Virus record (IMG/VR): IMGVR_UViG_3300014205_000183
Direction: 5' to 3' (one strand)
Length of the DNA: 64,000 bases
Origin: a virus
Taxonomy: Duplodnaviria > Caudoviricetes
The translations under genes and the position numbers were made by a program. Position 1 is the first letter of the stretch. The number at the start of each line of letters is the position of its first letter. The notes below the pieces were generated by a model. It was not told the origin of the DNA. It saw nothing but the letters and a program-made list of their open reading frames with translations, and did not search any database. This document shows, in pieces, positions 4,804 through 64,000 of the stretch.

Positions 4804-4842
4804 GTTGACTCCTTAAGATTTGGTTTTTTGTATACATATATA

Positions 4843-6168
4843 TTAGCGAGCCACACTGGCCGCCCGTTCTTCCGTTTTAGCGCCTTCAAATTGGTTGCTG
4901 TCTGCCCGATTCTCATAATCCATATCTTCAGCAAATTCCTTAACTTCAATAATATCCTGCCGCATAATATCGACAGGTTCATCTAGCCCATCAATGGCAA
5001 CCACTAAGCTCCCATCCTCATGCTCTTCAACAACCACAGCATCAACTTCATCCTCTTCATATTTGATAAGGATGATGGTGCCTTCGGGAGTATCTCCAGG
5101 GGCATTCTGCTCAGCAATGTGCTCTTGGATAGCCTCTTTTTTCTCGTTAATAAACTCATCTCGATTCTGCTCTACATTACCAGGCATTTCACCAATCATG
5201 ACGTACATATCTGGGGTTTTACGAATAGATTGGGAAGGGTTTGGATTTGTCTCAATGTATGCTACTTTGGCAGCTGTTTTCTTCTTACTGGAAAAAACCT
5301 CCAACAACTTAGCATCTTTATCAGCACCCTCGCCACCAGCCTTACCACCAAAACGGAAAGGTAATATGAGACTATCTTCAAAGAAACCACAACCACGGTT
5401 AATTTCAAATGGAATGACGAACATGCCACCGATCTGCATTTGGCGACCTTTGTGAAGTCTAATGCAATCACAAAAATCTTCATGCTCTGGTAACTCACCA
5501 TTGGCAGCGTTACCACAAACAGAACAAACCGCAGATTCCACCATAGTACCCATGCTGGAGTCAGTCACTTCACCAGCTAGAATAGCCCGACATAAACCTC
5601 GAGTATGATCTTCCGCCTGTTCTTTGTTAATAGCCCAGACATTCTCAACCCAACCAGAATTCGCCATATGCTTAGCAACCGCCTCAACTATCTGCCTCTG
5701 ATCGCTGCCTCTTACGAGTTTGCGGTCATTTGCGTAAGAGAGCACTTTGCCAAAGGCTTCTTTATTAGAGGCACAAGTAGCAGTTAAATTATCCAGGAGC
5801 TGATTAAATGGCATTATGGGCAGCCCCAAATCATCCCGAATACCTGGGATGGGGATAAACTCACTGTCCAACACAATACCGATTTGAGTCGTTCCTATAT
5901 GATCAACACTAATAGGCCTACCAATAAAAGAAGGATACGATTTTGCAAGTTCATCGTATTCAAAGGCGTCCCAGTTCTGGTTTGGCCCGTGAATCTCTAA
6001 GGCACTGATAGCTCTGTTTCGTAAATAAATATGGTTTTCAGGGTCCAAGTCAAAGGACTCCATACGATTAGCGGCCTGCTTAACTAAACCACCTTGCCAC
6101 GGACGGACTAAGCCTGCTAGCGTAGAGGAGGTCTTAATAATTTTTGCTGAACCGTAAGCTATTAGCAT
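4843..6168 (-). CDS. prohead (maturation) protease with Zn-ribbon insertion
   Basis: PNQNWDAF...F.GRP..VDH...G...D and DSSMG followed by CSVCG..C.C; position upstream of scaffold and capsid. Confidence 0.7.
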   Translation of the reverse strand: MLIAYGSAKIIKTSSTLAGLVRPWQGGLVKQAANRMESFDLDPENHIYLRNRAISALEIHGPNQNWDAFEYDELAKSYPSFIGRPISVDHIGTTQIGIVLDSEFIPIPGIRDDLGLPIMPFNQLLDNLTATCASNKEAFGKVLSYANDRKLVRGSDQRQIVEAVAKHMANSGWVENVWAINKEQAEDHTRGLCRAILAGEVTDSSMGTMVESAVCSVCGNAANGELPEHEDFCDCIRLHKGRQMQIGGMFVIPFEINRGCGFFEDSLILPFRFGGKAGGEGADKDAKLLEVFSSKKKTAAKVAYIETNPNPSQSIRKTPDMYVMIGEMPGNVEQNRDEFINEKKEAIQEHIAEQNAPGDTPEGTIILIKYEEDEVDAVVVEEHEDGSLVVAIDGLDEPVDIMRQDIIEVKEFAEDMDYENRADSNQFEGAKTEERAASVAR

Positions 6169-53266: not shown

Positions 53267-53323
53267 CTGTTACCTCCTTAGTTATGCTTGCCAGATAAAC
53301 CCTGTATTCATCCGACACTATAT

Positions 53324-53370
53324 AATTTAATATATAGCATAATAAAAGTCAACATAAAAATAAAAAAATA
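53324..53370 (-). promoter_or_regulatory. sigma70-like promoter with UP element
   Basis: TTGACT-17 bp-TAAATT; same TTTTATGTTGACTTT context as at 61891. Confidence 0.65.
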
Positions 53371-53371
53371 A

Positions 53372-53665
53372 TTATAGTTTATTAACCAATTTCTCTAACA
53401 AAGATAGCCTGCGGGCAACCAGCAGATTCTTGCTCTCCAGGAGCTTAAATAGCTTGCGAACAGTAGATAACTTCAATCGAATAAGGTCGCCTGTATCCGG
53501 CTTATGCAGCACAACAGTCAAATAAGGCGATCTGCCGGTCTTTGAATGCGGGTAGTATAATGTCTCGGCTGTGGCCAGATCCTGCCCCAGATACGCTGTT
53601 ACCTTGTCTGACAGCTGCCTCGTAGCCATTACATTAAAATTCTTTAACCGTACAGGTTTAGGCAT
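53372..53665 (-). CDS. hypothetical protein
   Basis: 97-aa ORF in a tandem small-gene array. Confidence 0.55.
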   Translation of the reverse strand: MPKPVRLKNFNVMATRQLSDKVTAYLGQDLATAETLYYPHSKTGRSPYLTVVLHKPDTGDLIRLKLSTVRKLFKLLESKNLLVARRLSLLEKLVNKL

Positions 53666-53686
53666 TTTAATACCCTTTCTAAAATT

Positions 53687-53962
53687 TTACATTAAAGTTA
53701 TACCATGAGGGCTATTTGTATCATGACATCGATTAGGACAGGTTAAATCTCGTCCGCATGCAGTACATTGTGCGCCGTCTTCCTTATTCACCTGTCGTAC
53801 CTCCCATACTCGGTTAGAGAGGTCATGCATAGTTAGTAGGTCAACTATCCTGCCTAGCACATATTTGTCTGTATACTCGTTAGTAGACTCAATCACCGCC
53901 ATTTTTATCTGGGGGTGCTCTCTCGGACTGTCCTTATTAGAACAAAATAATTCGTAGTTCAT
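53687..53962 (-). CDS. hypothetical Zn-finger protein
   Basis: CTACG...CPNRC. Confidence 0.55.
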   Translation of the reverse strand: MNYELFCSNKDSPREHPQIKMAVIESTNEYTDKYVLGRIVDLLTMHDLSNRVWEVRQVNKEDGAQCTACGRDLTCPNRCHDTNSPHGITLM

Positions 53963-54204
53963 TTAATAGTATCTCCGGGATTATAGGTATCTAACATAGC
54001 GGAGCCAAATAAATTAGCATACACATTATTTGCATCTCGCACATAAAGATGCTCTACGTGATTCTCAGAAGTTGCATGCTTTGCGATAACAATAATTGGG
54101 CGAGTTAAAGAATTTAATTTGACTATGTCCTGCTCCATATCCGAACAACCCTGGCAGCCACTCAAGCAAAATAACATACCTCCGTAAATAACTAACTTTT
54201 TCAT
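53959..54204 (-). CDS. putative lipoprotein
   Basis: MKK + hydrophobic stretch + LSGC lipobox. Confidence 0.6.
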   Translation of the reverse strand: MKKLVIYGGMLFCLSGCQGCSDMEQDIVKLNSLTRPIIVIAKHATSENHVEHLYVRDANNVYANLFGSAMLDTYNPGDTIK

Positions 54205-54396
54205 TCAGTACCCCCAAGAATAATATCTATACAACTATGGTTTGCGTGCTATTCTAAGCCGCCACCAACCTAAACGCACCTGGACACCTAAGAACTTAGT
54301 AACCTGCCCCTTTACAACTGCGCGGTAAAAGTATCCCTCACCCTTAGAGACATCCCACCATATAGTTTCAAATCCAAACCCGCAGTAGTTCATATA

Positions 54397-54651
54397 TTAT
54401 GATTCTTTCTTTTCATCTTGCATTTGTGGGTGTACCTTATCAGGTGTCGCTGTAAAATTTACGGTAACAGAGTATTTTTCTGGAGTATGGGACTCCATTA
54501 TCATATGAGGTTGCAGGTTGTGCGTCACCCCTCTCCTTAAATCCGGCGCCAGACTGCGAGTATCGAGGCAAAGCCGCTCAATACGAACATCCACAAGGTC
54601 AGCCCCTCTGTTCTTTAACAACAAGGCTAGGTCATCTACTCGCATAAGCAT
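54397..54651 (-). CDS. hypothetical protein
   Basis: GGAG RBS; coupled to upstream stop. Confidence 0.5.
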   Translation of the reverse strand: MLMRVDDLALLLKNRGADLVDVRIERLCLDTRSLAPDLRRGVTHNLQPHMIMESHTPEKYSVTVNFTATPDKVHPQMQDEKKES

Positions 54652-54920
54652 TATTTTACTCTCCGCTTCTCACTATTGACTTTATTAGACTTGGTATCCT
54701 TGCGTTTCTTAACTATCTCACATGAATATTCATGCGGAGGTTTAGGCAGTTGAGTAGTCATTATAAAACCATTGGATTCCTTGCCTTTTTCTATTATCTC
54801 AAACATACCATACCAAGCATCCAACCATCTGCACAACAGCGTACCGCTAATCGTCACCAGCCTAAATTCAAATTTATCATCTCCCTCTTTTGCTTTTTTC
54901 TGACATTCAACTAGTGTCAT
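54651..54920 (-). CDS. hypothetical protein
   Basis: GGAGGAG RBS; ATGA overlap. Confidence 0.55.
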   Translation of the reverse strand: MTLVECQKKAKEGDDKFEFRLVTISGTLLCRWLDAWYGMFEIIEKGKESNGFIMTTQLPKPPHEYSCEIVKKRKDTKSNKVNSEKRRVK

Positions 54921-55819: not shown

Positions 55820-56047
55820 TTACATCAGTCCGCCAGGCTTATCAGGTTTCCCCGGATGTCGTTCTTCCCTAATAGTATGTTTAGCTATTGAACTTAATGT
55901 TCCACCAAATACGTTGGCCAACACCCGTAATTCCTCACCATATGTCAACTCTTTACAAGCCTCTATTAATACCCCTTTGATTTTAAACTCTGCTTCCTGT
56001 ACCAAAGATTCTCGATCGTGAATTCGAGGTAGATCACCAAACGCCAT
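55820..56047 (-). CDS. hypothetical protein
   Basis: GAGGAGG RBS. Confidence 0.6.
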   Translation of the reverse strand: MAFGDLPRIHDRESLVQEAEFKIKGVLIEACKELTYGEELRVLANVFGGTLSSIAKHTIREERHPGKPDKPGGLM

Positions 56048-56066
56048 TGTCCCCTCCTCTTTCCTA

Positions 56067-56558
56067 TCAGGTATGTATCTTTGTTTTGCAAGCTAAAACA
56101 TTCTCCAATTCGGAGATGATTGTTTCCGCTCTACGCAGCCTCTTTAGTAACAGCATAAATGAGGCAGAATGTTTAATTTTGTGAAAATTAACCTGATGAA
56201 AATGCTCAATTTCTTTTAATGTACCCTGCTGTATTATTTTTTCATACTCTCGCTGGTCAACTAAGTATCTTTCGGCAGATGTGGGATTAGGAATAACACC
56301 CAGACCTTCACAACGTTCACAAGGCATGCCGTGAGATACATGCGGTTGATCCCCTGTTCCTCTGCACGATGGACATGTTTTTAGTTGTGTTTCAGAATCT
56401 GTGTCTTTTACTTCCATAGAGACTGCACCCAGAAAACCAAAACCCTTTACCGCAGCATCAAACTGTGCTTCTGTTATTTGAACCAAATCAGGTGATGTGT
56501 CAGATAATTGTGCAGTCATAGTTCTTCCCGAGGGGGTTATCAAATTTACTTGCTTCAT
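56067..56558 (-). CDS. protein with DnaJ-type CxxCxGxG zinc finger
   Basis: CPSCRGTG ... CERCEGLG. Confidence 0.7.
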   Translation of the reverse strand: MKQVNLITPSGRTMTAQLSDTSPDLVQITEAQFDAAVKGFGFLGAVSMEVKDTDSETQLKTCPSCRGTGDQPHVSHGMPCERCEGLGVIPNPTSAERYLVDQREYEKIIQQGTLKEIEHFHQVNFHKIKHSASFMLLLKRLRRAETIISELENVLACKTKIHT

Positions 56559-56971
56559 TTATGCCTCCACAACAATAGTTAAAAATCTGCGGGGTTTTAA
56601 GTGGACCCCGCAAGAAACCACCAACAACTTGTACGCTCTTACGAGGCGTGTGCCAGCGAGGCAGTGATAAAATCCACCTTGCATACCCGTGTTGCACCTG
56701 GAGCACGGTACAGGTCGGGGGAGGGTTATAAGCTCCTCCGAAGAAATGCCTTTATTATGAGGCATACGCTGGATATCAATCAGCATTTTATTTTTAAAAC
56801 CCCAGCCGGGCTGCCTATTTCCCGTGAAGCCAGTTATAGACGTCCGCCTTTCAGCGTCGGCCACTGGGGAGTATTTAAAGCAGCCGCCCCCTTGGGTATG
56901 AGCCATTACCCTCAGTACCAAAAACCTTTACAAGAGACTCACTAGTTTTAGCGGCTGCTAATTTTCTCATT

Positions 56972-57151
56972 TTAGTCTATCCGTGTGAATGCGTCAACAA
57001 TATGTGCATCCCTCTCATCGTCATAAGATATCGTGTCATGTAAAGAGGCACGTTCATTTCTCCCACCTGCATCATACCCTGCACTAAACGCAGCCTCCAG
57101 CATAGCTTTTAATTTACTCTCTTCTATTGTGTGTAATTTGGTGGCCGACAT
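56972..57151 (-). CDS. hypothetical protein (59 aa, MSATKLH...)
   Basis: GGGAGG RBS just downstream of the promoter at 57205. Confidence 0.55.
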   Translation of the reverse strand: MSATKLHTIEESKLKAMLEAAFSAGYDAGGRNERASLHDTISYDDERDAHIVDAFTRID

Positions 57152-57176
57152 AATAACCTCCCGTTAAACAGTTATT

Positions 57177-57220
57177 AAAATAAATACTGTAATAATGAAA
57201 GTCAACAAAAAAATAAAATA
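57177..57220 (-). promoter_or_regulatory. sigma70-like promoter with UP element
   Basis: TTGACT-17 bp-TATTTT preceded by a T tract. Confidence 0.65.
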
Positions 57221-57466
57221 TTATTGTAATAGCCCTTTAGCTACTGCATTGTGCACTTCATATGTCCAAGCAATGGCTGCATCCTCAAACTTATTAAAGG
57301 CAGCCTTTCTAACTTCTATAGCTCTGTGAACTGCTGCGTAACATTGTTGCAATTCAGCATCTGTAACAGTGTGTATATTTTGAACAATGCCTTGAGGACT
57401 GCCGCCTATATCACCAAATATAGCACGCCCTTTATTAAATAACTCCTCGAATATCTTATCATTCAT
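57221..57466 (-). CDS. hypothetical protein
   Basis: AAAGGA before MNDKIF. Confidence 0.55.
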   Translation of the reverse strand: MNDKIFEELFNKGRAIFGDIGGSPQGIVQNIHTVTDAELQQCYAAVHRAIEVRKAAFNKFEDAAIAWTYEVHNAVAKGLLQ

Positions 57467-57493
57467 CGCGTGTATCCTTTGATTAGATTCAAT

Positions 57494-57523
57494 AAAAAAC
57501 CCCAACCAAGTATGGCTGGGGTT
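57494..57523 (-). terminator. intrinsic terminator after the Ro60 gene
   Basis: AACCCCAGCC-loop-GGTTGGGGTT followed by a T run. Confidence 0.7.
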
Positions 57524-57533
57524 GTGTTACTTC

Positions 57534-58997
57534 TTATCTGAGATTTTCAACCTCTCTAATATAAGACAAGATACCCTCGCTGAAGCCGCTGATATGGTTC
57601 CAAGTTCCCCTAGGACCTACACCGTGCTCTGCTGAAGCCACGTTAACCATGTAAGCCAGCGGCGTTCTGGCGTTTGGAACTGATGTCCTGGACTGCTCAT
57701 CGGTGAACACTATAAGCCGGTCATAATCCTTCTTCTCTGCTGCGGATACTGCATAGGCGATGTCAGTGCCACCACCGAATACAGCGCCTGCCAAGGCATC
57801 CCGCAAAGCGAATCCTTTGCGTGGTGGCAACAGCAGTAACTCACCCCTATTGCCAAAGCTGTAAATATCTACATCATCACAAACCCATCGCAACACCATG
57901 GCCAACCCGAAGGCAGCCTCGTATCGCATAAGTTCTGACTTATCAGATAGAGGGTCTTTCATCGAACCACTAGTATCTACCAGCAACGCTGTACGACCAG
58001 CCAATTTAACCTGGCTTAATATAGACTTCTCCATAACGGCCTCTAACTCTGGCTCAAAAGCCGGCGCATGCTTGGCTGCGGCGATGAATCTGAATGGCAA
58101 TATCTTGCTAGTCTTCATAGCAAGCAACGCCTCCTTTATTAACGCCCGGTCAACACCTGCCTGCTCCATGTTACGCAAGTTGCGTAACAAGGCCATCCCA
58201 CCAAGCAGCTCCTCCTTTATCAGGCGAGTGAAGGTCTTCTTCTTATCTGCACCTGCACTTAAAGCGGTCTCCCAGGTATCTGGGATAGGTAATACAGCCT
58301 CCTCATAGTTGGTGCATGGCTCACCTGGCTTACGCCGCTTTACTGGCTTCTTAGCCTTCTTGCGAGCCTGTTCAGCCTTCTTTATAGCTGCTGGAGAGGC
58401 ATGGTCGTCACACTTACACCAACAATGCTTACAGAAGTTACCACTAAGGGTCTTGAACAGTCTGTCCTGCTCCTTATCAACTGCCTTTGGTCTAGCCAAA
58501 AACAACACGTCACGCAACTTCACAGCTGCATTGTTGAAGTCCCACTTAGACAGACGCTCAAGATCAAACTTACCGAGACCGGCAGCCAATCCTCGCTTAA
58601 GCTGCTTGGATAGCATCTTGCGGTCACCGTTTACTGACCAGTAAAGGCTTACCAACTCGCCCAGCTCATCTGGGCGCTGAATCACAGCCTCTGCGGTCTT
58701 GGCCACAAACTCAGGATGAAACTTGCACATAGCAACGACAATCATGAGTGGGGCATGCCGCATATGCCACTTTGACCGAACCTCTATAGCCCAATCACTG
58801 GCAAACTGACCAGACACCTTGGCCACTGCATCATATATAGCAGTCTTTATGGTCTTACCATCTACATAGAACTGATCCTCTCCCAGGAAGCAACAGGCAG
58901 TTAGCCGTTGTAGTAGCTGCTCTGGAGTATTTCTGATAGCTACCGCACCCTCGTGGGTGTGTGGAGCTGGGGTTACGATTTTACGATTTGACTTCAT
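57534..58997 (-). CDS. Ro60/Rsr-like TROVE-domain RNA-binding protein with vWA domain
   Basis: THEG, FY.DG, MR..P, QRPDE..E, LRDVLFL..PK, TWET.LS, MALLRNLRN, LPFRF..A, LVDTSGSM (MIDAS), GGTD, FTDEQ. Confidence 0.93.
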   Translation of the reverse strand: MKSNRKIVTPAPHTHEGAVAIRNTPEQLLQRLTACCFLGEDQFYVDGKTIKTAIYDAVAKVSGQFASDWAIEVRSKWHMRHAPLMIVVAMCKFHPEFVAKTAEAVIQRPDELGELVSLYWSVNGDRKMLSKQLKRGLAAGLGKFDLERLSKWDFNNAAVKLRDVLFLARPKAVDKEQDRLFKTLSGNFCKHCWCKCDDHASPAAIKKAEQARKKAKKPVKRRKPGEPCTNYEEAVLPIPDTWETALSAGADKKKTFTRLIKEELLGGMALLRNLRNMEQAGVDRALIKEALLAMKTSKILPFRFIAAAKHAPAFEPELEAVMEKSILSQVKLAGRTALLVDTSGSMKDPLSDKSELMRYEAAFGLAMVLRWVCDDVDIYSFGNRGELLLLPPRKGFALRDALAGAVFGGGTDIAYAVSAAEKKDYDRLIVFTDEQSRTSVPNARTPLAYMVNVASAEHGVGPRGTWNHISGFSEGILSYIREVENLR

Positions 58998-59245
58998 TGG
59001 ATATCCTTTCTTTTATATGAAACAATTCTTTCAAGAGGTTTCTCATCCTCATTAGCGGCTCTAATCGCAGCTGTACACACATATTGACAATGATACATAT
59101 GTACAGAAGCAGTGTCATACAACTCAGCAAATCCGTCTACTGTGCTAGCTAGGGCGTGTTCTGTTATATCTTTGGGTATATGTACTAATCTACGTTCTAA
59201 CTCGTTGTCTGCATTCACTAATAGAATTGTACCTTCGATAGCCAT
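58994..59245 (-). CDS. hypothetical protein translationally coupled to Ro60
   Basis: AGGAGG before MAIEG (59245); ATGA overlap with the Ro60 start; the longer ORF call runs into an RNA gene. Confidence 0.6.
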   Translation of the reverse strand: MAIEGTILLVNADNELERRLVHIPKDITEHALASTVDGFAELYDTASVHMYHCQYVCTAAIRAANEDEKPLERIVSYKRKDIQ

Positions 59246-59270
59246 TACATACCTCCTGTTAAGTACAAAT

Positions 59271-59300
59271 AAAAAAGCCACGGACAATATGTTCGTGGCT
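59271..59300 (-). terminator. intrinsic terminator between the ncRNA array and the Ro60 operon
   Basis: AGCCACGAACA-TAT-TGTCCGTGGCT followed by TTTTT. Confidence 0.7.
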
Positions 59301-59314
59301 AGATTTATAAAGTA

Positions 59315-59448
59315 TTGCGGGTAACGCATGAAACGAGCTTTTTTTGACGGTTGCTCTGCCAACTGAGCTACAGCAGCCTAAGCCGCTGATGGGACTCGAA
59401 CCCATGACCTACTGTGTGGTTGAAGTATTCGTCTCTCCAACACCGCAA
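59315..59448 (-). ncRNA. Y RNA (YrlA-like) 1
   Basis: TTGCG/CGCAA terminal stem; TGTTG..TACTTC; permuted tRNA module (T-arm GGGTTCGAGTCCC, closed acceptor hairpin, D-arm TAGCTCAGTTGGCAGAGC); CGTTACC; adjacent to Ro60. Confidence 0.85.
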
Positions 59449-59455
59449 ATTATAA

Positions 59456-59541
59456 ATCCGGGAACGTTCGACTGCCGTTAGTGGGTTACCCCACGGTCAT
59501 ACCAAAAAAGAATGAAGTAACGGATGTCTATCACCACGGAT
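59456..59541 (-). ncRNA. Y RNA 2 (minimal, no tRNA-like module)
   Basis: ATCCG/CGGAT stem; TGGTG..TACTTC..CGTTCC shared with the other copies. Confidence 0.7.
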
Positions 59542-59557
59542 CATTTTTCTTATTAAT

Positions 59558-59671
59558 AAGTCGGGAACGGGCACTGCACGTTAGCCCTTACCAAATAGGG
59601 CGAGGCATCTGGCGTTAACCAGGTGCACTGGGATTTGAACCTAGAAGTAGGTGCAATAATCACCACGACTT
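59558..59671 (-). ncRNA. Y RNA (YrlA-like) 3
   Basis: AAGTCG/CGACTT stem; TGGTG..TACTTC; T-arm GGTTCAAATCC; closed acceptor; D-arm GCCCTATTTGGTAAGGGC; CGTTCC. Confidence 0.8.
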
Positions 59672-60444
59672 GAATATGTGAAAGAACAAATAGACCAATT
59701 TATAAACCCAGTTAGAGGAAAAATAGAGGTAAAAAATAACCCCTACCGTGGCTGTTGCCAGTACCGCCCTCCAACCAAGCAATTTTTAAGAGTAGCTTGA
59801 GTGTCGGTACCGGTACTAATGATCTGTCCATATGAACAAACCCGTTCTCAGCCCTTGTTCTCTCACTACTCAACGTTTAAGGTTACCTTGATAATATTAG
59901 CTAACATTAATGTGGCCACAAAGAACGTCGAATACCAGGTACTGGTTATGAGCCAGCAGTCCAATATCACCTTTAAGACCTTCTTGCTACCAAAATATTA
60001 TCAAAGAACCAGTTTCTGTGTTCACGGGAGTGTCAGGCATCATCAGTGCAGGATTGAGAGCTACCCGGGCAGAATCGATTCTACTTGACCGGACAATCCT
60101 AACTGCACCCAACACAAGAAACTCCCGAGAACACACAATCAATTTGGAGCCAGACGCCCCCGGTTGATTAGACCGAAGGTTTGCTACGGAATCACCCGTA
60201 TGCTGGCAAGTTTTTACCTCTCTTCGTATCTCTACAGGCAGGAGGAGATCCCGGGAGCTGTTTTACCAGCCGCCACCCACCACCGTATTTTGTTAAATAC
60301 GGAAAATATTTCTCGTCGTAAGAATAAAGAGGCTTGTGGCCCCGCCTGGTCCCCGGCCTTACAACGAAATTTTAAAGGGGGTATATCCTTATCTTTTAGG
60401 GATAAGTGCCCTCGGGTGGAGTCTATATACCCTTTAATTTATAA

Positions 60445-60579
60445 TGCCGGTAACGTGCGAAACACTGACGTGTGCGCTCTACCACTGAGCTACGTTCGGC
60501 ATGAATGGGCCAAACGACAGGATTCGAACCTGTGACCTCACCCTCCAAAAGGGAAGTAAGTGTATCTATCAACACGGCA
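60445..60579 (-). ncRNA. Y RNA (YrlA-like) 4
   Basis: TGCCG/CGGCA stem; TGTTG..TACTTC; T-arm CAGGTTCGAATCCTG; D-arm TAGCTCAGTGGTAGAGC; CGTTACC. Confidence 0.85.
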
Positions 60580-60614
60580 AATTTTATATCAAAGAACAAG
60601 CTAATCTACAAACC

Positions 60615-60740
60615 TCAGCAGAAGTGGGAGTCGAACCCACAGAACCCAGAGAGATAACAGACTCTCTAAGTAACCTCTTTTCGCTTGCCGTTATCGCAGC
60701 TACTCGAAAGCGCGGCTGCCAATTTTCGCCATTCTGCTGA
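60615..60740 (-). ncRNA. tRNA-like RNA with expanded anticodon domain and no CCA
   Basis: TCAGCAGAA/TTCTGCTGA acceptor; D-arm; long variable arm; T-arm GTGGGTTCGACTCCCAC. Confidence 0.65.
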
Positions 60741-61636
60741 TTTCTTTTTAACGATCATAGAGGGGCATGGTCAGCACGGAGGTTTATAAGCCCCTCACCG
60801 CTGAGTATTTAATTCAGCTTCAACCAACTATGCTTGTCCTCTACAATCTACATGTCAAAGTCATGGGTCAGAATTTAGTCAAAAACTTAACCTAAACCCT
60901 AAGTCTCTGCTTCTGTTTGGACTGGCTACCGTCCATGCAAATATGGCGCCCCTACAATAGAGTGACTATTCACAACACTTGCCCTAATGCCTTGCAGTTA
61001 CCCCGGGTGCGGCACCTACTCTAGTGTCATTGCAGCATCTCTTCGCTGCGTAGAGGACTTTTAATAAGTGCTACTAGATCCGGTTGTTGGAGCTGCATTA
61101 GCGCCTAGAGAGGATGTGTTCGCACGGTTTAAAGATTCTCACAAGGTTGGGCAGGTAGTGTCTCCTGCTCTGACTGGTCAAGCCTCTTTATTCTCGGCCC
61201 TTCCCACGTAACCAACGGGTGAGCTTCCGAGTTCATCAACGTGTTTCAACGCTGCACCAACCCTGTCAGAATCCTTAACTCTTTTACAAGTGAGGTTGGC
61301 TAACACGCACTTGTGTCCGAGTTGTTTACCGAGTTCGCTCGGTGGTCCACGGGCAACCCTGCGTTGCTCCTCACTTATTTTTTAAGGGTGTCCTGAACTT
61401 TAGACGAACTGCGTCAAGCAAGCCGGATCGTGACCCCGGATTTCCCTAAGTTTGAAGACACAGCCAAGGGTCGCGCCCTTCTCGACGGTCTCTCACCGCA
61501 AGCCATGCCAAATTTATAAACCAACAGGAGATATATCCATAAGGATATAACAAAGTTACTGGAGCAATTACGCTTCATCACAACGGTAGCGACCTTACGG
61601 TGCGCCCATCCTGTTGATAATTTATTTCAAAGAACA

Positions 61637-61842
61637 AAAATCATATATCGATGGAGTCGAACCACCTAGTCTGCCTACTTACATTTACCTACCGGATTTT
61701 CATGTCCGTTCCAGTGTAGGCCGTGCACCAGTTGTTTAGACCGCACACGTACAGGATTTGAACCCGCAATAAATGTGTGCTTCAACAGCATTTGCAGCTT
61801 ACGAGGCTACTGCGTTCACCATGACGCCCCACATATGATTTT
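61637..61842 (-). ncRNA. ~205-nt tRNA-like RNA with two T-arms
   Basis: AAAATCATAT/ATATGATTTT closing stem; D-arm; anticodon-like arm; T-arms CGGGTTCAAATCCTG and GTGGTTCGACTCCAT. Confidence 0.6.
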
Positions 61843-61867
61843 AAAAGAACATTTTAATTTCCTAAAT

Positions 61868-61915
61868 AACATAAACTATTAAAAATTAAAAGTCAACATA
61901 AAAATAAAAAAAAAT
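61868..61915 (-). promoter_or_regulatory. sigma70-like promoter of the ncRNA operon
   Basis: TTGACT-17 bp-TATGTT with a T-rich UP element; boxA-like GTTCTTT just downstream. Confidence 0.7.
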
Positions 61916-62035
61916 TATCACACTCGGTACGATTATTCTTTACATCTCATTTTTAACACTATATATTAGCAGCATCATCGACCAACGGAGTTTAACCATT
62001 TTGATATCTACTCCGTATATCAAGAAAGGACATGT

Positions 62036-62740
62036 ATGATGCATTCAAATTCTTTTGTCTTAGCTGTCAAGTCGGCGGACAACAAAATCCTTCGTGAAAT
62101 CGGAGGACAGGTTTTCCTCACATTCAATTCAGAGTATTCTCTCCTGCTGAAGAACCTTAACAATGTAAAAAGCTGTTGCACAGTTAGCATTGACGGAACG
62201 GATGTTCTAGGTGGTCACGAGTTGATCGTCGAAGCACATTCCAGTATTGACCTAGAGAGATTTGTGGTAGATGGCAACTTTGGAAGTGGTCGCCGCTTCA
62301 AATTTGTACCACTTACGGACTCTAAGGTACAAGACCCCTCTTCTGCTGAAAATGGTATCGTGGAAGTGCGGTTCTGGAAAGAGAAAGTTATTCAACCTAT
62401 CTTCATAGGGAGTAACTCTCTTCTTCGATCAAGCGGGGTGATCCATCCTAACTCCAGCAGTTGCTTCTATTCAGCTCCTATAGGTACTGCCTGCTGTGAT
62501 AGTATGGCTACTCCAGCGGCTGCGGGGGCTACTGTAGAAGGTGCATATAGCAATCAGCAGTTTGGCAGCGGATACTTCGGAGAAAAAGACGGGGCACCCA
62601 CCGTGCTGCGGCTTAAGTTGGTTGGTCAGGTAGATAAACCACTAACAGTAGAAGCTACTAAAAATAAACACTGCACTAACTGTGGCCGAAAAGCCAAGTT
62701 CAATGATTATTTCTGTGGTGGCTGCGGTAAAGCTCTATAA
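62036..62740 (+). CDS. hypothetical protein with C-terminal zinc ribbon
   Basis: 234 aa; AAAGGA RBS; CTNCG...CGGCG; own terminator; the only convincing plus-strand gene in the window. Confidence 0.8.
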   Translation: MMHSNSFVLAVKSADNKILREIGGQVFLTFNSEYSLLLKNLNNVKSCCTVSIDGTDVLGGHELIVEAHSSIDLERFVVDGNFGSGRRFKFVPLTDSKVQDPSSAENGIVEVRFWKEKVIQPIFIGSNSLLRSSGVIHPNSSSCFYSAPIGTACCDSMATPAAAGATVEGAYSNQQFGSGYFGEKDGAPTVLRLKLVGQVDKPLTVEATKNKHCTNCGRKAKFNDYFCGGCGKAL

Positions 62741-62765
62741 GATCCAGTTACTCGGTCGATGACAG

Positions 62766-62795
62766 CCCGGCTTCCATGGTGGAGGCCGGGTTTTT
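62766..62795 (+). terminator. intrinsic terminator
   Basis: CCCGGCTTCC-ATGGT-GGAGGCCGGG followed by TTTTT. Confidence 0.8.
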
Positions 62796-62802
62796 AATTT
62801 AA

Positions 62803-62925
62803 TGCCGGTAACGTGCGTTTTCGGATGTTTTTTGTTTTACCATTAAACTACACCTTACGGCGTCGGGATTCGAACCCGAATCTTTCTTTAGACAGAAGAA
62901 GTATCCGATAACTATCAACACGGCA
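62803..62925 (-). ncRNA. Y RNA (YrlA-like) 5
   Basis: TGCCG/CGGCA stem; TGTTGATAG..TACTTC; T-arm TCGGGTTCGAATCCCGA; short closed acceptor; D-arm TAGTTTAATGGTAAAAC; CGTTACC. Confidence 0.85.
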
Positions 62926-62929
62926 ATTT

Positions 62930-63018
62930 TGGCGGATGAAGTGAGACTCGAACTCACAACGCCGTCTCTGGCGCTACTGCTTTTCAAGAGCAGCTCCCGT
63001 TCCAGCAGGAACTCATCC
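62930..63018 (-). tRNA. tRNA-Ser(TGA)
   Basis: Anticodon loop CTTGAAA; long variable arm; TTCGA; encoded CCA; atypical D-arm. Confidence 0.85.
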
Positions 63019-63026
63019 ATATATTT

Positions 63027-63103
63027 TGGAGCACCCTCCCGGAATTGCACCGAGGTATTAATCGGGTTGCGACCGACCGCCTTACTGTCTTGGCTAAGAG
63101 TGC
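63027..63103 (-). tRNA. tRNA-Cys(GCA)
   Basis: Loop TCGCAAC; U73 discriminator; CCA; T-loop TGCAA. Confidence 0.8.
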
Positions 63104-63113
63104 ATATAAATTT

Positions 63114-63194
63114 TGGTGCGCTAGGAGGGACTTGCACCCCCACGATTTCTCGGCAGATCCTAAGTCTGCTGCGTCTGCATTCCGCCACAAGCGC
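63114..63194 (-). tRNA. tRNA-Leu(TAG)
   Basis: Loop CTTAGGA; A73; CCA; T-loop TGCAA. Confidence 0.85.
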
Positions 63195-63200
63195 ATAATC

Positions 63201-63277
63201 TGGTATCCTCGGTTGGATTCTAACCAACGACATCCTCTTTAGGAAAGAAGAACTCTGAACAGCTGAGCTACGAGGAT
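63201..63277 (-). tRNA. tRNA-Arg(CCT)
   Basis: Loop TTCCTAA; CCA; T-loop TAGAA. Confidence 0.85.
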
Positions 63278-63278
63278 A

Positions 63279-63355
63279 TGGTGCTTCGAGTCGGACTTAA
63301 ACCGACGGCATCAGCCTTCGGAAAGCTGCGCTCTATTCATCTGAGCTATCGAAGC
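63279..63355 (-). tRNA. tRNA-Arg(CCG)
   Basis: Loop TTCCGAA; CCA; T-loop TTTAA. Confidence 0.88.
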
Positions 63356-63360
63356 CTGTT

Positions 63361-63437
63361 TGGCGTTCATGGAAGGACTTGAACCTTCAGCCTCCTGGTC
63401 CGTAGCCAGGTGCTCTATCCAATTGAGCTACACGAAC
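63361..63437 (-). tRNA. tRNA-Arg(ACG)
   Basis: Loop CTACGGA; canonical arms; CCA. Confidence 0.92.
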
Positions 63438-63443
63438 ATATTT

Positions 63444-63519
63444 TGGCAGGAGAGGCCGGAGTTGAACCGACGACATCCAGCTCCAGAGGCTGGCGTTCTA
63501 CCAACTGAACTACTCTCCA
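63444..63519 (-). tRNA. tRNA-Gln(CTG)
   Basis: Loop CTCTGGA; canonical arms; CCA. Confidence 0.9.
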
Positions 63520-63526
63520 ACGATTT

Positions 63527-63600
63527 TGGCTGAGGTGCATCGACTTGCACGATGATAACAGGCTCCAAAGGCCTGGGTCCTACTATTGAACGACACCCCA
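63527..63600 (-). tRNA. tRNA-Gln(TTG)
   Basis: Loop CTTTGGA; U1:A72; CCA; T-loop TGCAA. Confidence 0.88.
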
Positions 63601-63634
63601 AAATTTTTAAAAGAGCCGGGTGGTTGTCCCCGGC

Positions 63635-64000
63635 TTATGCTTCAAGTTCAACATCCCAATAAACAAAGTCTTTCCAACTCTCGTGCGGCAGGTGCTTAAG
63701 AGCCTGAATCTTCAGGGTTATTTCACGCTCAAGAGAGAGGTCGTACTTCGGCGCCTGGGGTGTGCACCACAAGTGCATTCCAGCTTGTGCCGGCGTTCGG
63801 TTAGCCTTCTTGCCGTTGCAAGCTAAGCAGCAGCATACAAGATTACGCCAATGACTTGTTCCACCCTGGTCACGAGGAACCACGTGGTCCCAGTGCATCT
63901 TCTGGATAGGTAAAAACGTCCGGCAATACTGACAATGCCCCCGGTCACGAATCCACAGATTCTTACGGGACAGCCGCATAACACGGCCACGCTTCTGGAC
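63635..64000 (-). CDS. HNH endonuclease (probably 5'-truncated by the window edge)
   Basis: RD...CQYC, DHVVPR.QGG...W.NLV.CC..CN..K.NRTP. Confidence 0.88.
   Translation of the reverse strand, partial: VQKRGRVMRLSRKNLWIRDRGHCQYCRTFLPIQKMHWDHVVPRDQGGTSHWRNLVCCCLACNGKKANRTPAQAGMHLWCTPQAPKYDLSLEREITLKIQALKHLPHESWKDFVYWDVELEA

What the first reader, a model, noticed from the sequence alone, without database searches (positions are those of the whole stretch)
59271..61915. Ro60-linked operon of about 20 small structured RNAs
Seen: 2.5 kb between a sigma70-like promoter (61868-61896) and a terminator (59271-59300) has no credible protein gene. It is tiled with closed-stem units separated by short AT-rich spacers, as in a tRNA operon. 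Besides four Y RNAs and two tRNA-like RNAs, units with self-complementary ends lie at about 59710-59776, 59790-59871, 59888-60004, 60017-60135, 60308-60370, 60374-60436, 60752-60848, 60862-60938, 60950-61056, 61069-61124, 61134-61273, 61288-61376, 61388-61461 and 61522-61616. A GC-rich unit ending in CCA lies at 60145-60285. Several stems are completed by G-U pairs only on the minus strand. Known: Ro60 genes sit next to one or a few Y RNAs. Inference: this is a processed polycistronic RNA toolkit (decoys, scaffolds or guides) whose members I mostly cannot assign to any family.
Basis: partly seen in the sequence, partly recalled or inferred. Interest (0 to 1): 0.92.

Follow-up and report, generated by a model that had tools for sequence, protein, structure and literature searches.

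The report
Phage Ro60-linked structured RNA operon
Just upstream of its Ro60 gene, an uncultured large phage carries a 2.6-kb protein-free transcription unit encoding four Y RNAs, three tRNA look-alikes and about ten further unusually stable folded RNAs of no known family, punctuated by rRNA-type antitermination signals; the Y RNA part is a known kind of system, and the rest is new but rests on sequence analysis alone.

Summary
The stretch 59271-61915 (minus strand) is a non-coding transcription unit. It has no ORF with a ribosome-binding site. Its promoter belongs to a repeated phage promoter family. Its intrinsic terminator is conserved, and a small ORF and Ro60 follow directly.

A related phage contig (L016, Ro60 57% identical) has the same layout in 0.8 kb instead of 2.55 kb.

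Four units are Y RNAs; their handle covaries across 38 sequences, and a fifth lies at 62799-62928. Three units carry T-loops (tRNA look-alikes). The other 1.7 kb matches neither my Y RNA model nor any Rfam family, and has no homologue anywhere I searched.

Terminal 7-bp stems alone are at chance level. However, this is the most densely structured 2.2 kb of the 132-kb record, and 9-10 orphan units beat shuffles (z -2.8 to -5.2).

Five boxA-like motifs (GTTCTTTGA type) sit in the leader and between blocks. This argues for Nus-factor antitermination of one long untranslated transcript.

Processing, Ro60 binding and any function of the orphans are inferred, not shown.

This scan has reported Ro60 with arrays of 4-5 Y-like RNAs before, on other phage DNA. 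It has also noted this same stretch in other readings.

The parts
61868..61896 (-). Sigma70-type promoter (TTGACT, 17 nt, TATGTT) with an A/T-rich upstream block
   Evidence: Scan hit. The invariant block TTATTTTTATGTTGACTTTTA is shared with two other promoters of this genome and with the array promoter of L016.
61842..61850 (-). Leader boxA-like element GTTCTTTTA(AAA), about 20 nt after the -10
   Evidence: It is present after the two RNA-array promoters (window and L016) and absent after the two protein-gene promoters of the same family.
61743..61837 (-). tRNA look-alike 1: cloverleaf with anticodon CGU, a 25-nt variable arm, and G8 and C14 instead of U8 and A14
   Evidence: ARAGORN calls it tRNA-Thr, 95 nt. 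Rfam tRNA scores 27.6 bits, below the gathering score of 29.
61645..61742 (-). tRNA look-alike 2: carries a T-loop (GGTTCGACTCC); the rest is not tRNA-like
   Evidence: T-loop motif. Its T-arm is 94% identical to that of the phage tRNA-Tyr. Fold z is -0.66.
61627..61635 (-). Internal boxA-like element 2 (TGTTCTTTGAAA)
   Evidence: It matches the B. subtilis boxA consensus UGAUCUUUGAAA (PMC13753749) at 11 of 12 positions.
61519..61618 (-). Orphan structured unit
   Evidence: z -3.84. RNALfold z -3.76 with the same bounds.
61386..61518 (-).
   Evidence: z -0.72 and +0.61: no more stable than shuffles.
61285..61378 (-). Orphan structured unit with a 10-bp closing helix
   Evidence: z -2.84. RNALfold z -3.68. 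Closing helix.
61128..61278 (-). Orphan structured unit, 150 nt, with a long closing stem and a multi-branch core. It holds one arm of the 16-nt complementarity (61179-61194).
   Evidence: z -4.97, with 0 of 200 shuffles folding as well. RNALfold z -5.26. Repeat I1.
60862..61124 (-). Three proposed units (61069-61124, 60950-61056, 60862-60938) with ambiguous bounds
   Evidence: z +0.12, -0.99 and -2.24. RNALfold prefers 60980-61104, z -3.07.
60752..60848 (-). Orphan structured unit with an 11-bp closing helix
   Evidence: z -3.62. Also found in the MFE domain list and by RNALfold.
60605..60745 (-). tRNA look-alike 3: a 9-bp acceptor-like stem stacked on a T-arm, with about 90 nt of extra hairpins and no encoded CCA
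   Evidence: T-loop. Fold z -2.22, with 6 of 200 shuffles as good.
60589..60597 (-). Internal boxA-like element 3
60441..60582 (-). Y RNA (YrlA type, with a T-arm and D-arm module)
   Evidence: Model R1 117.7 bits. Rfam YrlA partial match, 30.9 bits.
60272..60420 (-). It holds the other arm of the 16-nt complementarity (60321-60336).
   Evidence: z -3.88, with 0 of 200 shuffles as good. RNALfold z -4.82.
60143..60290 (-). GC-rich stretch ending in ...GCUCCA followed by AAAU, like the 3' ends in the tRNA operon. Weak as one unit; its 5' end competes with the junction above.
   Evidence: z -0.85 and -1.26. Only the inner part 60169-60231 reaches z -3.25.
60013..60138 (-). Orphan rod-like structured unit
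   Evidence: z -5.23. RNALfold z -5.09.
60001..60009 (-). Internal boxA-like element 4
59880..60010 (-). Orphan unit containing an anticodon-arm look-alike (5-bp stem, loop CUCAUAA)
   Evidence: z -2.38. RNALfold z -3.88. Anticodon-arm motif.
59789..59871 (-). Orphan structured unit
   Evidence: z -3.44 on the minus strand against +0.24 on the plus strand.
59705..59780 (-). Orphan structured unit with a 14-bp closing helix
   Evidence: z -3.47. RNALfold z -4.38. Closing helix.
59679..59687 (-). Internal boxA-like element 5 (variant GTTCTTTCA)
59555..59673 (-). Y RNA (handle, T-arm and two hairpins)
   Evidence: Model R1 80.9 bits.
59452..59544 (-). Y RNA with a short hairpin module (CGUGGGGUAACCCAC), shared with L016 unit 3503-3593
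   Evidence: Model R1 59.5 bits. Alignment A1.
59312..59450 (-). Y RNA (YrlA type)
   Evidence: Model R1 95.5 bits. Rfam YrlA 45.5 bits, E 3e-8, below the gathering score of 69.
59271..59300 (-). Intrinsic terminator (hairpin plus UUUUUUAUUU), directly followed by the ribosome-binding site of the next ORF
   Evidence: z -4.35. The 3' half and the U-run are conserved in L016.
58994..59245 (-). 83-codon ORF with an AGGAGG site; its stop overlaps the Ro60 start
   Evidence: Sequence reading, ORF table; no family match.
57534..58997 (-). Ro60 orthologue (TROVE plus vWA)
   Evidence: Pfam TROVE E 4e-10 plus vWA. More than 7000 homologues at E below 1e-60, many named Ro ribonucleoprotein or TROVE by their sources.
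62799..62928 (-). Fifth Y RNA, at the 3' end of the neighbouring tRNA operon and before a terminator (outside the finding's range)
   Evidence: Model R1 112.6 bits. Sequence and terminator.

Best explanation
The stretch is one long non-coding operon of an uncultured large phage that also carries 36 tRNAs and a tmRNA. A host-type sigma70 promoter starts transcription on the minus strand. A boxA-like element in the leader, with four more inside the unit, loads NusB and S10 onto RNA polymerase, as in rRNA operons and CRISPR arrays. The polymerase can then cross 2.5 kb of untranslated, hairpin-rich RNA without Rho-dependent or premature termination.

The precursor is cut into stable small RNAs. 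Cutting would occur at the tRNA-like modules (RNase P and RNase Z type) and in the A/U-rich spacers (UUAAAA, UUAUAAAU). The paired 5' and 3' ends of each RNA would protect it from exonucleases.

Four products are Y RNAs that share one Ro60-binding handle and carry different modules. They load onto the phage Ro60. That protein is translated from the cistrons just behind the terminator, probably by read-through, which would give much RNA and little protein.

Three products are tRNA look-alikes. About ten more are phage-specific structured RNAs of no known family. I think these most likely act as protein-binding decoys or clients in the same RNA-surveillance context.

Shown here: absence of genes, the promoter family, the terminator, the Y RNA handle with covariation, boxA-like motif distribution, exceptional density of stable structure, and synteny with one relative.

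Inferred: transcription as one unit, Nus loading, processing sites, Ro60 binding, and any role of the orphans.
For: No gene.

Promoter family, conserved at the syntenic place in L016.

boxA-like motif. The extended pattern occurs 7 times in 264 kb of both strands; 5 of these are on the sense strand of the two RNA operons, and a sixth variant is at 59687. It follows only the RNA-array promoters, in both phages. Published consensus sequences are E. coli UGCUCUUUAACA and B. subtilis AUGAUCUUUGAAA; boxA is also found upstream of CRISPR operons (PMC13753749).

Terminator conserved, with ORFs following directly.

Y RNA handle: 91% of cells paired against 67.5% in shuffles, 20 of 22 pairs with changes on both sides, and 0 of 500 shuffles reaching any measure, over 38 sequences next to Ro60 genes.

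Structure density is the genome maximum on the minus strand. Nine orphans have z <= -2.8, and RNALfold independently recovers the same bounds.

The relative L016 has four orphan units between its Y RNAs, three of them with z -3.3 to -4.5.

Precedent: D. radiodurans makes Yrn2, tRNA-Asp and Yrn1 as one precursor upstream of rsr, with four small RNAs encoded there (PMC4201824).

Pieces of the array, letter for letter, occur in a second metagenome from another study, so it is not an assembly artefact.
Against: There are no RNA data of any kind.

No orphan has a homologue, even in the syntenic relative, so there is no covariation evidence. Lack of conservation is also what drifting spacer would show.

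Terminal stems of 7 bp are at chance level, and longer ones are only mildly enriched.

Five or six proposed units are no more stable than shuffles.

The Ro60 coding sequence next door is almost as rich in low-z local structures and shows the same strand asymmetry.

Three internal boxA-like copies can also be read as lying inside sigma70-like promoters (and sequence reading).

A promoter-like site at 59118-59090 could drive Ro60 independently.
Confidence: 0.6

Rival explanations
1. Only the Y RNAs and tRNA look-alikes are functional. The orphan 1.7 kb is fast-drifting filler: decayed copies of Y RNA or tRNA genes, or spacer, that is transcribed but has no function of its own.
For: There is no similarity between the orphans here and those in the syntenic L016, although handles, T-arms, promoter and terminator are conserved. 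There are no paralogues in the genome. Closing-helix statistics are near chance. Several units are no better than shuffles. One orphan holds an anticodon-arm relic.
Against: This is the most densely structured stretch of the record, and nine units have z of -2.8 to -5.2. Drifting sequence should not be more stable than its own shuffles. Both phages keep closed, stable units at the same kind of position. The array is 3 times longer than in the relative, in a phage genome that is otherwise tightly packed. The regular A/U spacer motif sits at unit boundaries.
Confidence: 0.22
2. The orphans are not about 14 small RNAs but a few larger structured RNAs (150-900 nt) held together by longer-range pairing.
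For: Units 60374-60436 and 60308-60370 fold better as one 149-nt four-way junction, z -3.88. A perfect 16-nt complementarity joins 61179-61194 to 60321-60336, 842 nt apart; about 0.001 such pairs are expected by chance. Bounds are ambiguous at 60862-61124 and 60143-60290.
Against: There is no match to GOLLD, ROOL, OLE, HEARO or any other Rfam family even at E up to 10. Most stable units are bounded by A/U spacers and long local closing stems. Both arms of the 16-nt pair lie inside well-folded local units.
Confidence: 0.1
3. The GTTCTTTGA motif belongs to internal promoters, so the stretch is a cluster of four or five independent short RNA operons and not one antiterminated transcript.
For: TTGTAG-17-TATAAA spans the copy at 60597 and would start transcription at the Y RNA 5' end. 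TGAACA-16-GATAAT spans the copy at 60009 (and sequence).
Against: The motif would lie in the normally unconserved spacer of these promoters. The copy at 61635 has no credible -35. The leader copies in the window and in L016 lie downstream of a well-defined promoter. The motif is absent from the protein-gene promoters of the same family. It matches published boxA consensus sequences (PMC13753749).
Confidence: 0.06
4. The stretch hides small protein genes or uses another genetic code.
For: Under code 4 a 293-aa plus-strand frame opens at 59678-60559.
Against: That frame needs three TGA read-throughs, runs antisense across a Y RNA, and the phage's other genes are intact under code 11. No ORF of 25 aa or more has a Shine-Dalgarno core on either strand. 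There is no Pfam or PHROG match. The phage has no suppressor tRNA among its 36.
Confidence: 0.02

Closest known systems
Bacterial and phage Ro60 (Rsr) loci with YrlA, YrlB or Yrn Y RNAs (Chen et al. 2014, PMC4201824; Rfam RF02553)
   Same: A TROVE plus vWA protein gene has Y RNAs directly upstream on the same strand. There is a conserved two-helix handle. At least one Y RNA carries a T-arm and D-arm tRNA-like module. Co-transcription with tRNA-like genes matches D. radiodurans Yrn2, tRNA-Asp and Yrn1.
   Different: Here there are four Y RNAs, plus a fifth in the tRNA operon, embedded in 2.55 kb together with about 1.7 kb of units that lack the handle. boxA-like elements are present. The Rfam YrlA gathering score is not reached (45.5 and 30.9 against 69 bits).
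Y RNA arrays of Caulobacter phages CcrPW and CcrColossus (loci L007, L008)
   Same: A long promoter-driven non-coding array lies directly upstream of the phage Ro60 gene.
   Different: There, about 1.2 kb is filled by about eight tandem units that all carry the handle (read by eye; 4 reach the model threshold). Here only 4 of about 20 units do.
boxA-dependent Nus-factor antitermination of rRNA operons and CRISPR arrays (PMC13753749; PMC2724277)
   Same: There is a short U-rich motif of the GYUCUUU(R)A type in the leader, about 20 nt after the promoter, and again further inside a long untranslated, highly structured transcript.
   Different: Five copies lie in 2.5 kb of a phage small-RNA operon. 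NusB-S10 binding was not tested and the host is unknown.
Phage T4 tRNA gene cluster with stable RNAs species 1 and 2 (from my own knowledge, not checked in a paper here)
   Same: Small stable RNAs of unknown function are encoded among tRNA genes and matured from polycistronic precursors.
   Different: T4 has two such RNAs and no Ro60. Here there are about ten orphans in their own operon, tied to Ro60 and Y RNAs.
Large ornate RNAs found beside phage tRNA arrays (GOLLD, ROOL)
   Same: Kilobase-scale protein-free structured sequence lies near tRNA genes in a phage.
   Different: There is no Rfam match at E up to 10. The stretch resolves into short locally closed units and not one conserved large fold.

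Membership tests
Y RNA (YrlA type, RF02553): units 59312-59450, 59452-59544, 59555-59673, 60441-60582 | Encoded next to a Ro60 (TROVE) gene | tested here: met
   The Ro60 ORF is at 57534-58997 on the same strand, 315 nt downstream of the last Y RNA.
Y RNA (YrlA type, RF02553): units 59312-59450, 59452-59544, 59555-59673, 60441-60582 | Conserved handle in which the 5' and 3' ends pair in two helices around an internal loop, supported by covariation | tested here: met
   In alignment A1, 19 of 22 pairs show compensatory change. In alignment A5 (38 sequences), 91% of cells are paired and 0 of 500 shuffles reach any measure.
Y RNA (YrlA type, RF02553): units 59312-59450, 59452-59544, 59555-59673, 60441-60582 | tRNA-like module (T-arm plus D-arm) in at least one Y RNA of the locus | tested here: met
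   Rfam aligns the T and D arms in 59327-59435 and 60471-60541.
Y RNA (YrlA type, RF02553): units 59312-59450, 59452-59544, 59555-59673, 60441-60582 | Score at or above Rfam's gathering threshold | tested here: not met
   45.5 and 30.9 bits against 69; nothing at gathering. I therefore file them as Y RNAs by handle and context, not as curated YrlA members.
Y RNA (YrlA type, RF02553): units 59312-59450, 59452-59544, 59555-59673, 60441-60582 | Bound by Ro60 | not testable with these tools
   Needs a pull-down.
Y RNA: the orphan units | Handle (5' CGUGKUGAU ... WACUUC and 3' GUUNCC) | tested here: not met
   Model R1 with filters off finds only the five Y RNAs in 56000-64000. The handle motifs occur only there.
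tRNA (RF00005): unit 61743-61837 | Cloverleaf scoring above the gathering threshold, with conserved U8, A14 and T-loop | tested here: inconclusive
   ARAGORN calls tRNA-Thr(CGU), 95 nt. Rfam scores 27.6 against 29 bits. The sequence has G8, C14 and a 25-nt variable arm that is unusual for tRNA-Thr.
boxA antitermination element | Match to the boxA consensus | tested here: met
   TGTTCTTTGAAA matches B. subtilis UGAUCUUUGAAA at 11 of 12 positions and E. coli UGCUCUUUAACA at 9 of 12 (PMC13753749).
boxA antitermination element | Located in the transcribed leader or spacers of a long untranslated operon and not spread through the genome | tested here: met
   5 of the 7 genome-wide matches lie on the sense strand of the RNA operons. 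The leader position is conserved in L016 and absent after protein-gene promoters.
boxA antitermination element | Binds NusB-S10 and suppresses Rho-dependent termination | not testable with these tools
   Needs binding and reporter assays; the host is unknown.
Any curated RNA family (Rfam 15, 4227 models, including GOLLD, ROOL, 6S, ribozymes, riboswitches): the orphans | Covariance-model match | tested here: not met
   No match at E up to 10 other than YrlA, tRNA and noise at the terminator.

The most novel reading that the evidence does not exclude
The orphans may be a previously undescribed class of phage RNA cargo: a fast-turning-over library of about ten sealed, highly stable small RNAs. 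They would be co-expressed with Ro60 and Y RNAs from a boxA-protected operon. They would serve as decoys or clients for host RNA-binding or RNA-cutting defence proteins. The 16-nt complementarity between two of them would mark RNA-RNA control within the set. The relative L016 would then carry a different, smaller library at the same place.
Probability: 0.25. Interest if true: 0.8.

Novelty: new variant of a known kind. Interest (0 to 1): 0.55.

Why it matters
Ro60 and Y RNAs are conserved from bacteria to humans, yet their role in phages is unknown. This locus is the largest Ro60-linked non-coding unit among the roughly 65 loci I compared. It mixes five Y RNAs that differ in their modules with tRNA look-alikes and a set of unassigned stable RNAs.

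If the orphans are real products, phages use Ro60 operons as platforms for diverse RNA effectors. If the boxA reading holds, the rRNA and CRISPR-type antitermination logic also serves phage small-RNA operons. That second point is a clean, testable one, using a reporter with and without the motif, Rho and NusB.

If the orphans turn out to be filler, the locus is simply an expanded example of a known system.

Tried and rejected
Rfam at gathering level on the window finds only seven tRNAs. Rfam in E-value mode on 58900-62100 adds nothing beyond YrlA, tRNA and noise.

DNA search of the array against GenBank phages: no match.

Ro60-anchored searches of IMG/VR, JGI metagenomes and GTDB genomes gave a closest relative of 57% identity (L016); all others are at 48% or less or lack the upstream flank. 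The 5.8-billion-protein search added only relatives at 61% and 55% identity on contigs of 1.5 and 2.6 kb.

The promoter pattern scan of IMG/VR gave 13 unrelated hits.

Sequencing runs: no RNA holder is listed. The second DNA holder (a groundwater metagenome from another study) carries identical pieces, so it offers no variation for covariation.

blastn-short of L016 orphans against window orphans, and of orphans against the phage's tRNA regions and the rest of the genome, found nothing beyond a T-arm.

Fixed 120-nt window z-scores separate the array poorly: -0.98, against -0.03 to -0.40 in two control coding regions and -0.85 in the Ro60 coding sequence.

Terminal-helix tiling at 7 bp is uninformative.

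Window 53267-54916, another stretch free of ORFs of 100 aa or more, proved to be small protein genes and not a second RNA array.

Alternative genetic codes were rejected.

A sixth Y RNA at 60145-60290, suspected by eye, was rejected by model R1.

Neighbouring genes (44-57 kb) include no RNA ligase, RtcB or PNPase.

I did not build single-sequence covariance models of orphans, because the only relative shows no sequence similarity.


Full report
WHERE IT LIES

The window is bases 32001-96000 of a 132-kb IMG/VR virus record. CheckV estimates it to be 68% complete. The identical Ro60 protein is on record on a 237-kb contig.

The record carries 36 tRNA genes and a tmRNA.

Pieces of the stretch occur letter for letter in Logan contigs of a second metagenome (groundwater, another study). 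The sequence is therefore reproducible, but that run offers no variation.

THE FRAME OF THE LOCUS

On the minus strand, a 487-aa TROVE plus vWA protein (Ro60) occupies 57534-58997. An 83-codon ORF with an AGGAGG site precedes it, and its stop overlaps the Ro60 start.

Immediately upstream lies a hairpin plus U-run at 59300-59271, with z -4.35.

From there to the promoter at 61896-61868 (TTGACT, 17 nt, TATGTT) there is no gene:
- ORFs are at most 123 aa, with no Pfam or PHROG match.
- No ORF of 25 aa or more has a Shine-Dalgarno core on either strand, whereas a control region of small genes shows several.
- Recoding TGA or TAG opens nothing credible.

The promoter is real in the sense that it belongs to a family. 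An invariant 21-nt block (TTATTTTTATGTTGACTTTTA) followed by a -10-like hexamer recurs before protein genes at window 53355 and at genome position 102083.

A SYNTENIC RELATIVE

The closest Ro60 I could find with flanks (L016, 57% identity) has the same layout:
- the same promoter block;
- a boxA-like motif about 20 nt after the -10;
- three Y RNAs with other sequence between them;
- the same terminator (3' half and U-run conserved);
- small ORFs, then Ro60;
- a tRNA array ending in a further Y RNA;
- a tmRNA nearby.

Its array is 0.8 kb; the window's is 2.55 kb.

All other Ro60 loci that I compared have 1-4 Y RNA model hits upstream of the gene. This covers about 65 loci from IMG/VR, JGI metagenomes and GTDB genomes. 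Caulobacter phages CcrPW and CcrColossus carry about eight tandem handle-bearing units in 1.2 kb (read by eye).

THE Y RNAs

I aligned the five window candidates with the three from L016. This gave a two-helix handle in which 19 of 22 predicted pairs show compensatory changes.

The covariance model built from this alignment (R1) finds exactly five copies in 56000-64000 with filters off:
- 59312-59450
- 59452-59544
- 59555-59673
- 60441-60582
- 62799-62928

On 38 matches from 33 sources, 91% of cells pair against 67.5% in shuffles. Twenty of 22 pairs change on both sides, and no shuffle or slid register comes near.

Rfam's YrlA model recognises two of them below its gathering score (45.5 and 30.9 against 69 bits).

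The handle motifs (WACUUC, GUUNCC) occur at these five places only.

tRNA LOOK-ALIKES

Seven T-loop motifs (GGTTCRANTCC) lie on the minus strand outside the canonical tRNAs. Four are in Y RNAs and three are in other units.
- 61743-61837: ARAGORN calls it tRNA-Thr(CGU) of 95 nt. Rfam scores it 27.6 against 29 bits. It has G8, C14 and a long variable arm.
- 61645-61742: a T-arm close to that of the phage tRNA-Tyr; the rest is not tRNA-like.
- 60605-60745: a 9-bp acceptor-like stem stacked on a T-arm with about 90 nt of extra hairpins, z -2.2.

THE ORPHANS: WHAT HOLDS AND WHAT DOES NOT

- A terminal helix of at least 7 bp within 50-150 nt tiles 84% of any 2.56 kb of this genome.
- Helices of 9, 10 or 11 bp or more are only mildly enriched: 14 against 9.4 +/- 2.5, 7 against 4.1, and 5 against 1.6.
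- Fixed-window z-scores hardly separate the array from coding sequence.
- The minus-over-plus energy advantage (-797 against -688 kcal/mol; 18 of 22 units) is shared by the Ro60 coding sequence. It therefore reflects a G+U-rich sense strand.

Three things do hold.

First, nine orphan units are clearly more stable than dinucleotide shuffles:

| Unit | z-score |
|---|---|
| 59705-59780 | -3.5 |
| 59789-59871 | -3.4 |
| 60013-60138 | -5.2 |
| 60272-60420 | -3.9 |
| 60308-60370 | -3.5 |
| 60752-60848 | -3.6 |
| 61128-61278 | -5.0 |
| 61285-61378 | -2.8 |
| 61519-61618 | -3.8 |

The unit 60308-60370 lies inside 60272-60420.

Second, an unsupervised RNALfold scan of the whole record recovers the same bounds. 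It also shows that the share of bases inside non-overlapping locally stable structures is the genome-wide maximum here. The share is 0.71 against 0.31 +/- 0.11 at z <= -2.5, and 0.56 against 0.17 +/- 0.09 at z <= -3. The minus strand scores higher than the plus strand.

Third, the unit boundaries carry a recurrent A/U motif. TTAAAA occurs 7 times on the minus strand, once on the plus strand, with 2.6 expected. TTATAAA occurs 5 times against 0.6 expected.

Against this:
- The units 60145-60285, 60374-60436, 60950-61056, 61069-61124 and 61388-61461, and the stretch 61386-61518, are no better than shuffles.
- The Ro60 coding sequence is nearly as rich in low-z hits.
- No orphan has any homologue. 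I searched GenBank phages, all fetched loci, L016 specifically and the rest of this genome.

L016 does have four closed units of its own between its Y RNAs, three of them with z -3.3 to -4.5. The kind of element is therefore shared while the sequences are not.

boxA-LIKE PUNCTUATION

I first noticed GTTCTTTGA as a repeated motif.

The nine-mer GTTCTTTSA occurs five times in the window, four of them on the minus strand of the array, against 1.4 expected.

The extended pattern occurs seven times in the whole record on both strands. Five of these are on the sense strand of the two RNA operons.

One copy sits about 20 nt after the -10 of the array promoter, and L016 has one at the same place. The two protein-gene promoters of the same family have none.

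The copy TGTTCTTTGAAA matches the B. subtilis boxA consensus (A)UGAUCUUUGAAA at 11 of 12 positions. It matches the E. coli consensus UGCUCUUUAACA at 9 of 12. boxA is also known upstream of CRISPR operons, another kind of long untranslated transcript (PMC13753749; also PMC2724277).

The copy at the head of the tRNA operon (63616) overlaps a terminator U-run and is ambiguous.

Three internal copies can alternatively be read as sitting inside sigma70-like promoters. I rate that lower, because the motif would fall in a promoter spacer and the leader copies lie downstream of a defined promoter.

HOW IT MOST LIKELY WORKS

One sigma70 promoter drives a long untranslated transcript. boxA-like elements keep RNA polymerase termination-resistant through 2.5 kb that includes two terminator-like hairpins (60343-60329 and 59747-59722).

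tRNA-like modules and A/U spacers give processing sites, and paired ends stabilise the products. The terminator at 59300 lets a fraction of polymerases through to the 83-codon ORF and Ro60, which have no room for a promoter of their own in the 25-nt gap.

The handle-bearing RNAs load onto Ro60. This parallels the D. radiodurans precursor of Yrn2, tRNA-Asp and Yrn1 upstream of rsr, and the four small RNAs encoded there (PMC4201824).

All steps after the sequence features are inference. No RNA run holds the stretch.

COMPARISON AND NOVELTY

The Ro60 and Y RNA part is a known kind of system (PMC4201824; jumbo-phage TROVE proteins are noted in PMC7824862). This scan has reported phage Ro60-type proteins with arrays of four or five Y-like RNAs on other DNA before.

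What is different here:
- the size of the unit;
- the fact that most of it lacks the handle and matches nothing;
- the boxA-like punctuation.

I file it as a new variant of a known kind. The orphan RNAs count as candidates until relatives or RNA data exist.

Noticed in passing
window 61179-61194 and 60321-60336: There is a perfect 16-nt complementarity between two orphan units 842 nt apart; about 0.001 such pairs are expected by chance in 2.7 kb. The downstream arm is the 3' half of a terminator-like hairpin plus its U-run. The upstream arm lies in a multiloop of the 150-nt unit. It could be RNA-RNA control or a long-range processing stem.
   Followed up: partly
window 62799-62928 (minus): A fifth YrlA-type Y RNA closes the neighbouring tRNA operon, just before a terminator at 62764-62792 that can be read on both strands. 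L016 likewise has a Y RNA (2123-2234) at the end of its tRNA array.
   Followed up: yes
window 59941-59957 (minus), inside unit 59880-60010: There is an anticodon-arm look-alike: a 5-bp stem with the 7-nt loop CUCAUAA (anticodon CAU) inside an orphan that is otherwise not tRNA-like. It may be a relic of a tRNA-Met or tRNA-Ile gene, or a deliberate mimic.
   Followed up: no
window 61743-61837 (minus): This tRNA-Thr(CGU)-like gene has a 25-nt variable arm, and G8 and C14. The phage also has a normal tRNA-Thr(CGU) at genome 96478-96551.
   Followed up: partly
window 53330-53383 (minus); genome 102060-102110 (plus); L016 3425-3470: A family of near-identical promoters (A/T-rich block plus ATGTTGACTTTTA plus a -10) is used for both protein and RNA operons. 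It is conserved between two phages whose Ro60 proteins are only 57% identical.
   Followed up: partly
window 62036-62740 (plus): A 234-aa ORF is divergent from the array promoter and convergent with the tRNA operon. It has a C-terminal zinc ribbon. The protein atlas places it among phage-only clusters of hypothetical proteins, and its function is unknown.
   Followed up: partly
L007 and L008, about 4720-5960: Caulobacter phages CcrPW and CcrColossus carry about eight tandem handle-bearing Y RNAs with different inner modules upstream of Ro60. This is more than the one or few usually quoted.
   Followed up: partly
window 57534-58997 (minus): The Ro60 coding sequence itself is unusually rich in locally stable RNA structures: 7 hits at z <= -3 in 1.46 kb, against a genome mean of 2.7 per 1.5 kb. 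It is also higher in G+C (50% against 43%). This is unexplained.
   Followed up: no
genome 110422-110772 (outside the window); L016 8032-8380: Both related phages encode a tmRNA (tag ANEEFRAAA here) in addition to large tRNA sets and the Ro60 and Y RNA unit.
   Followed up: no
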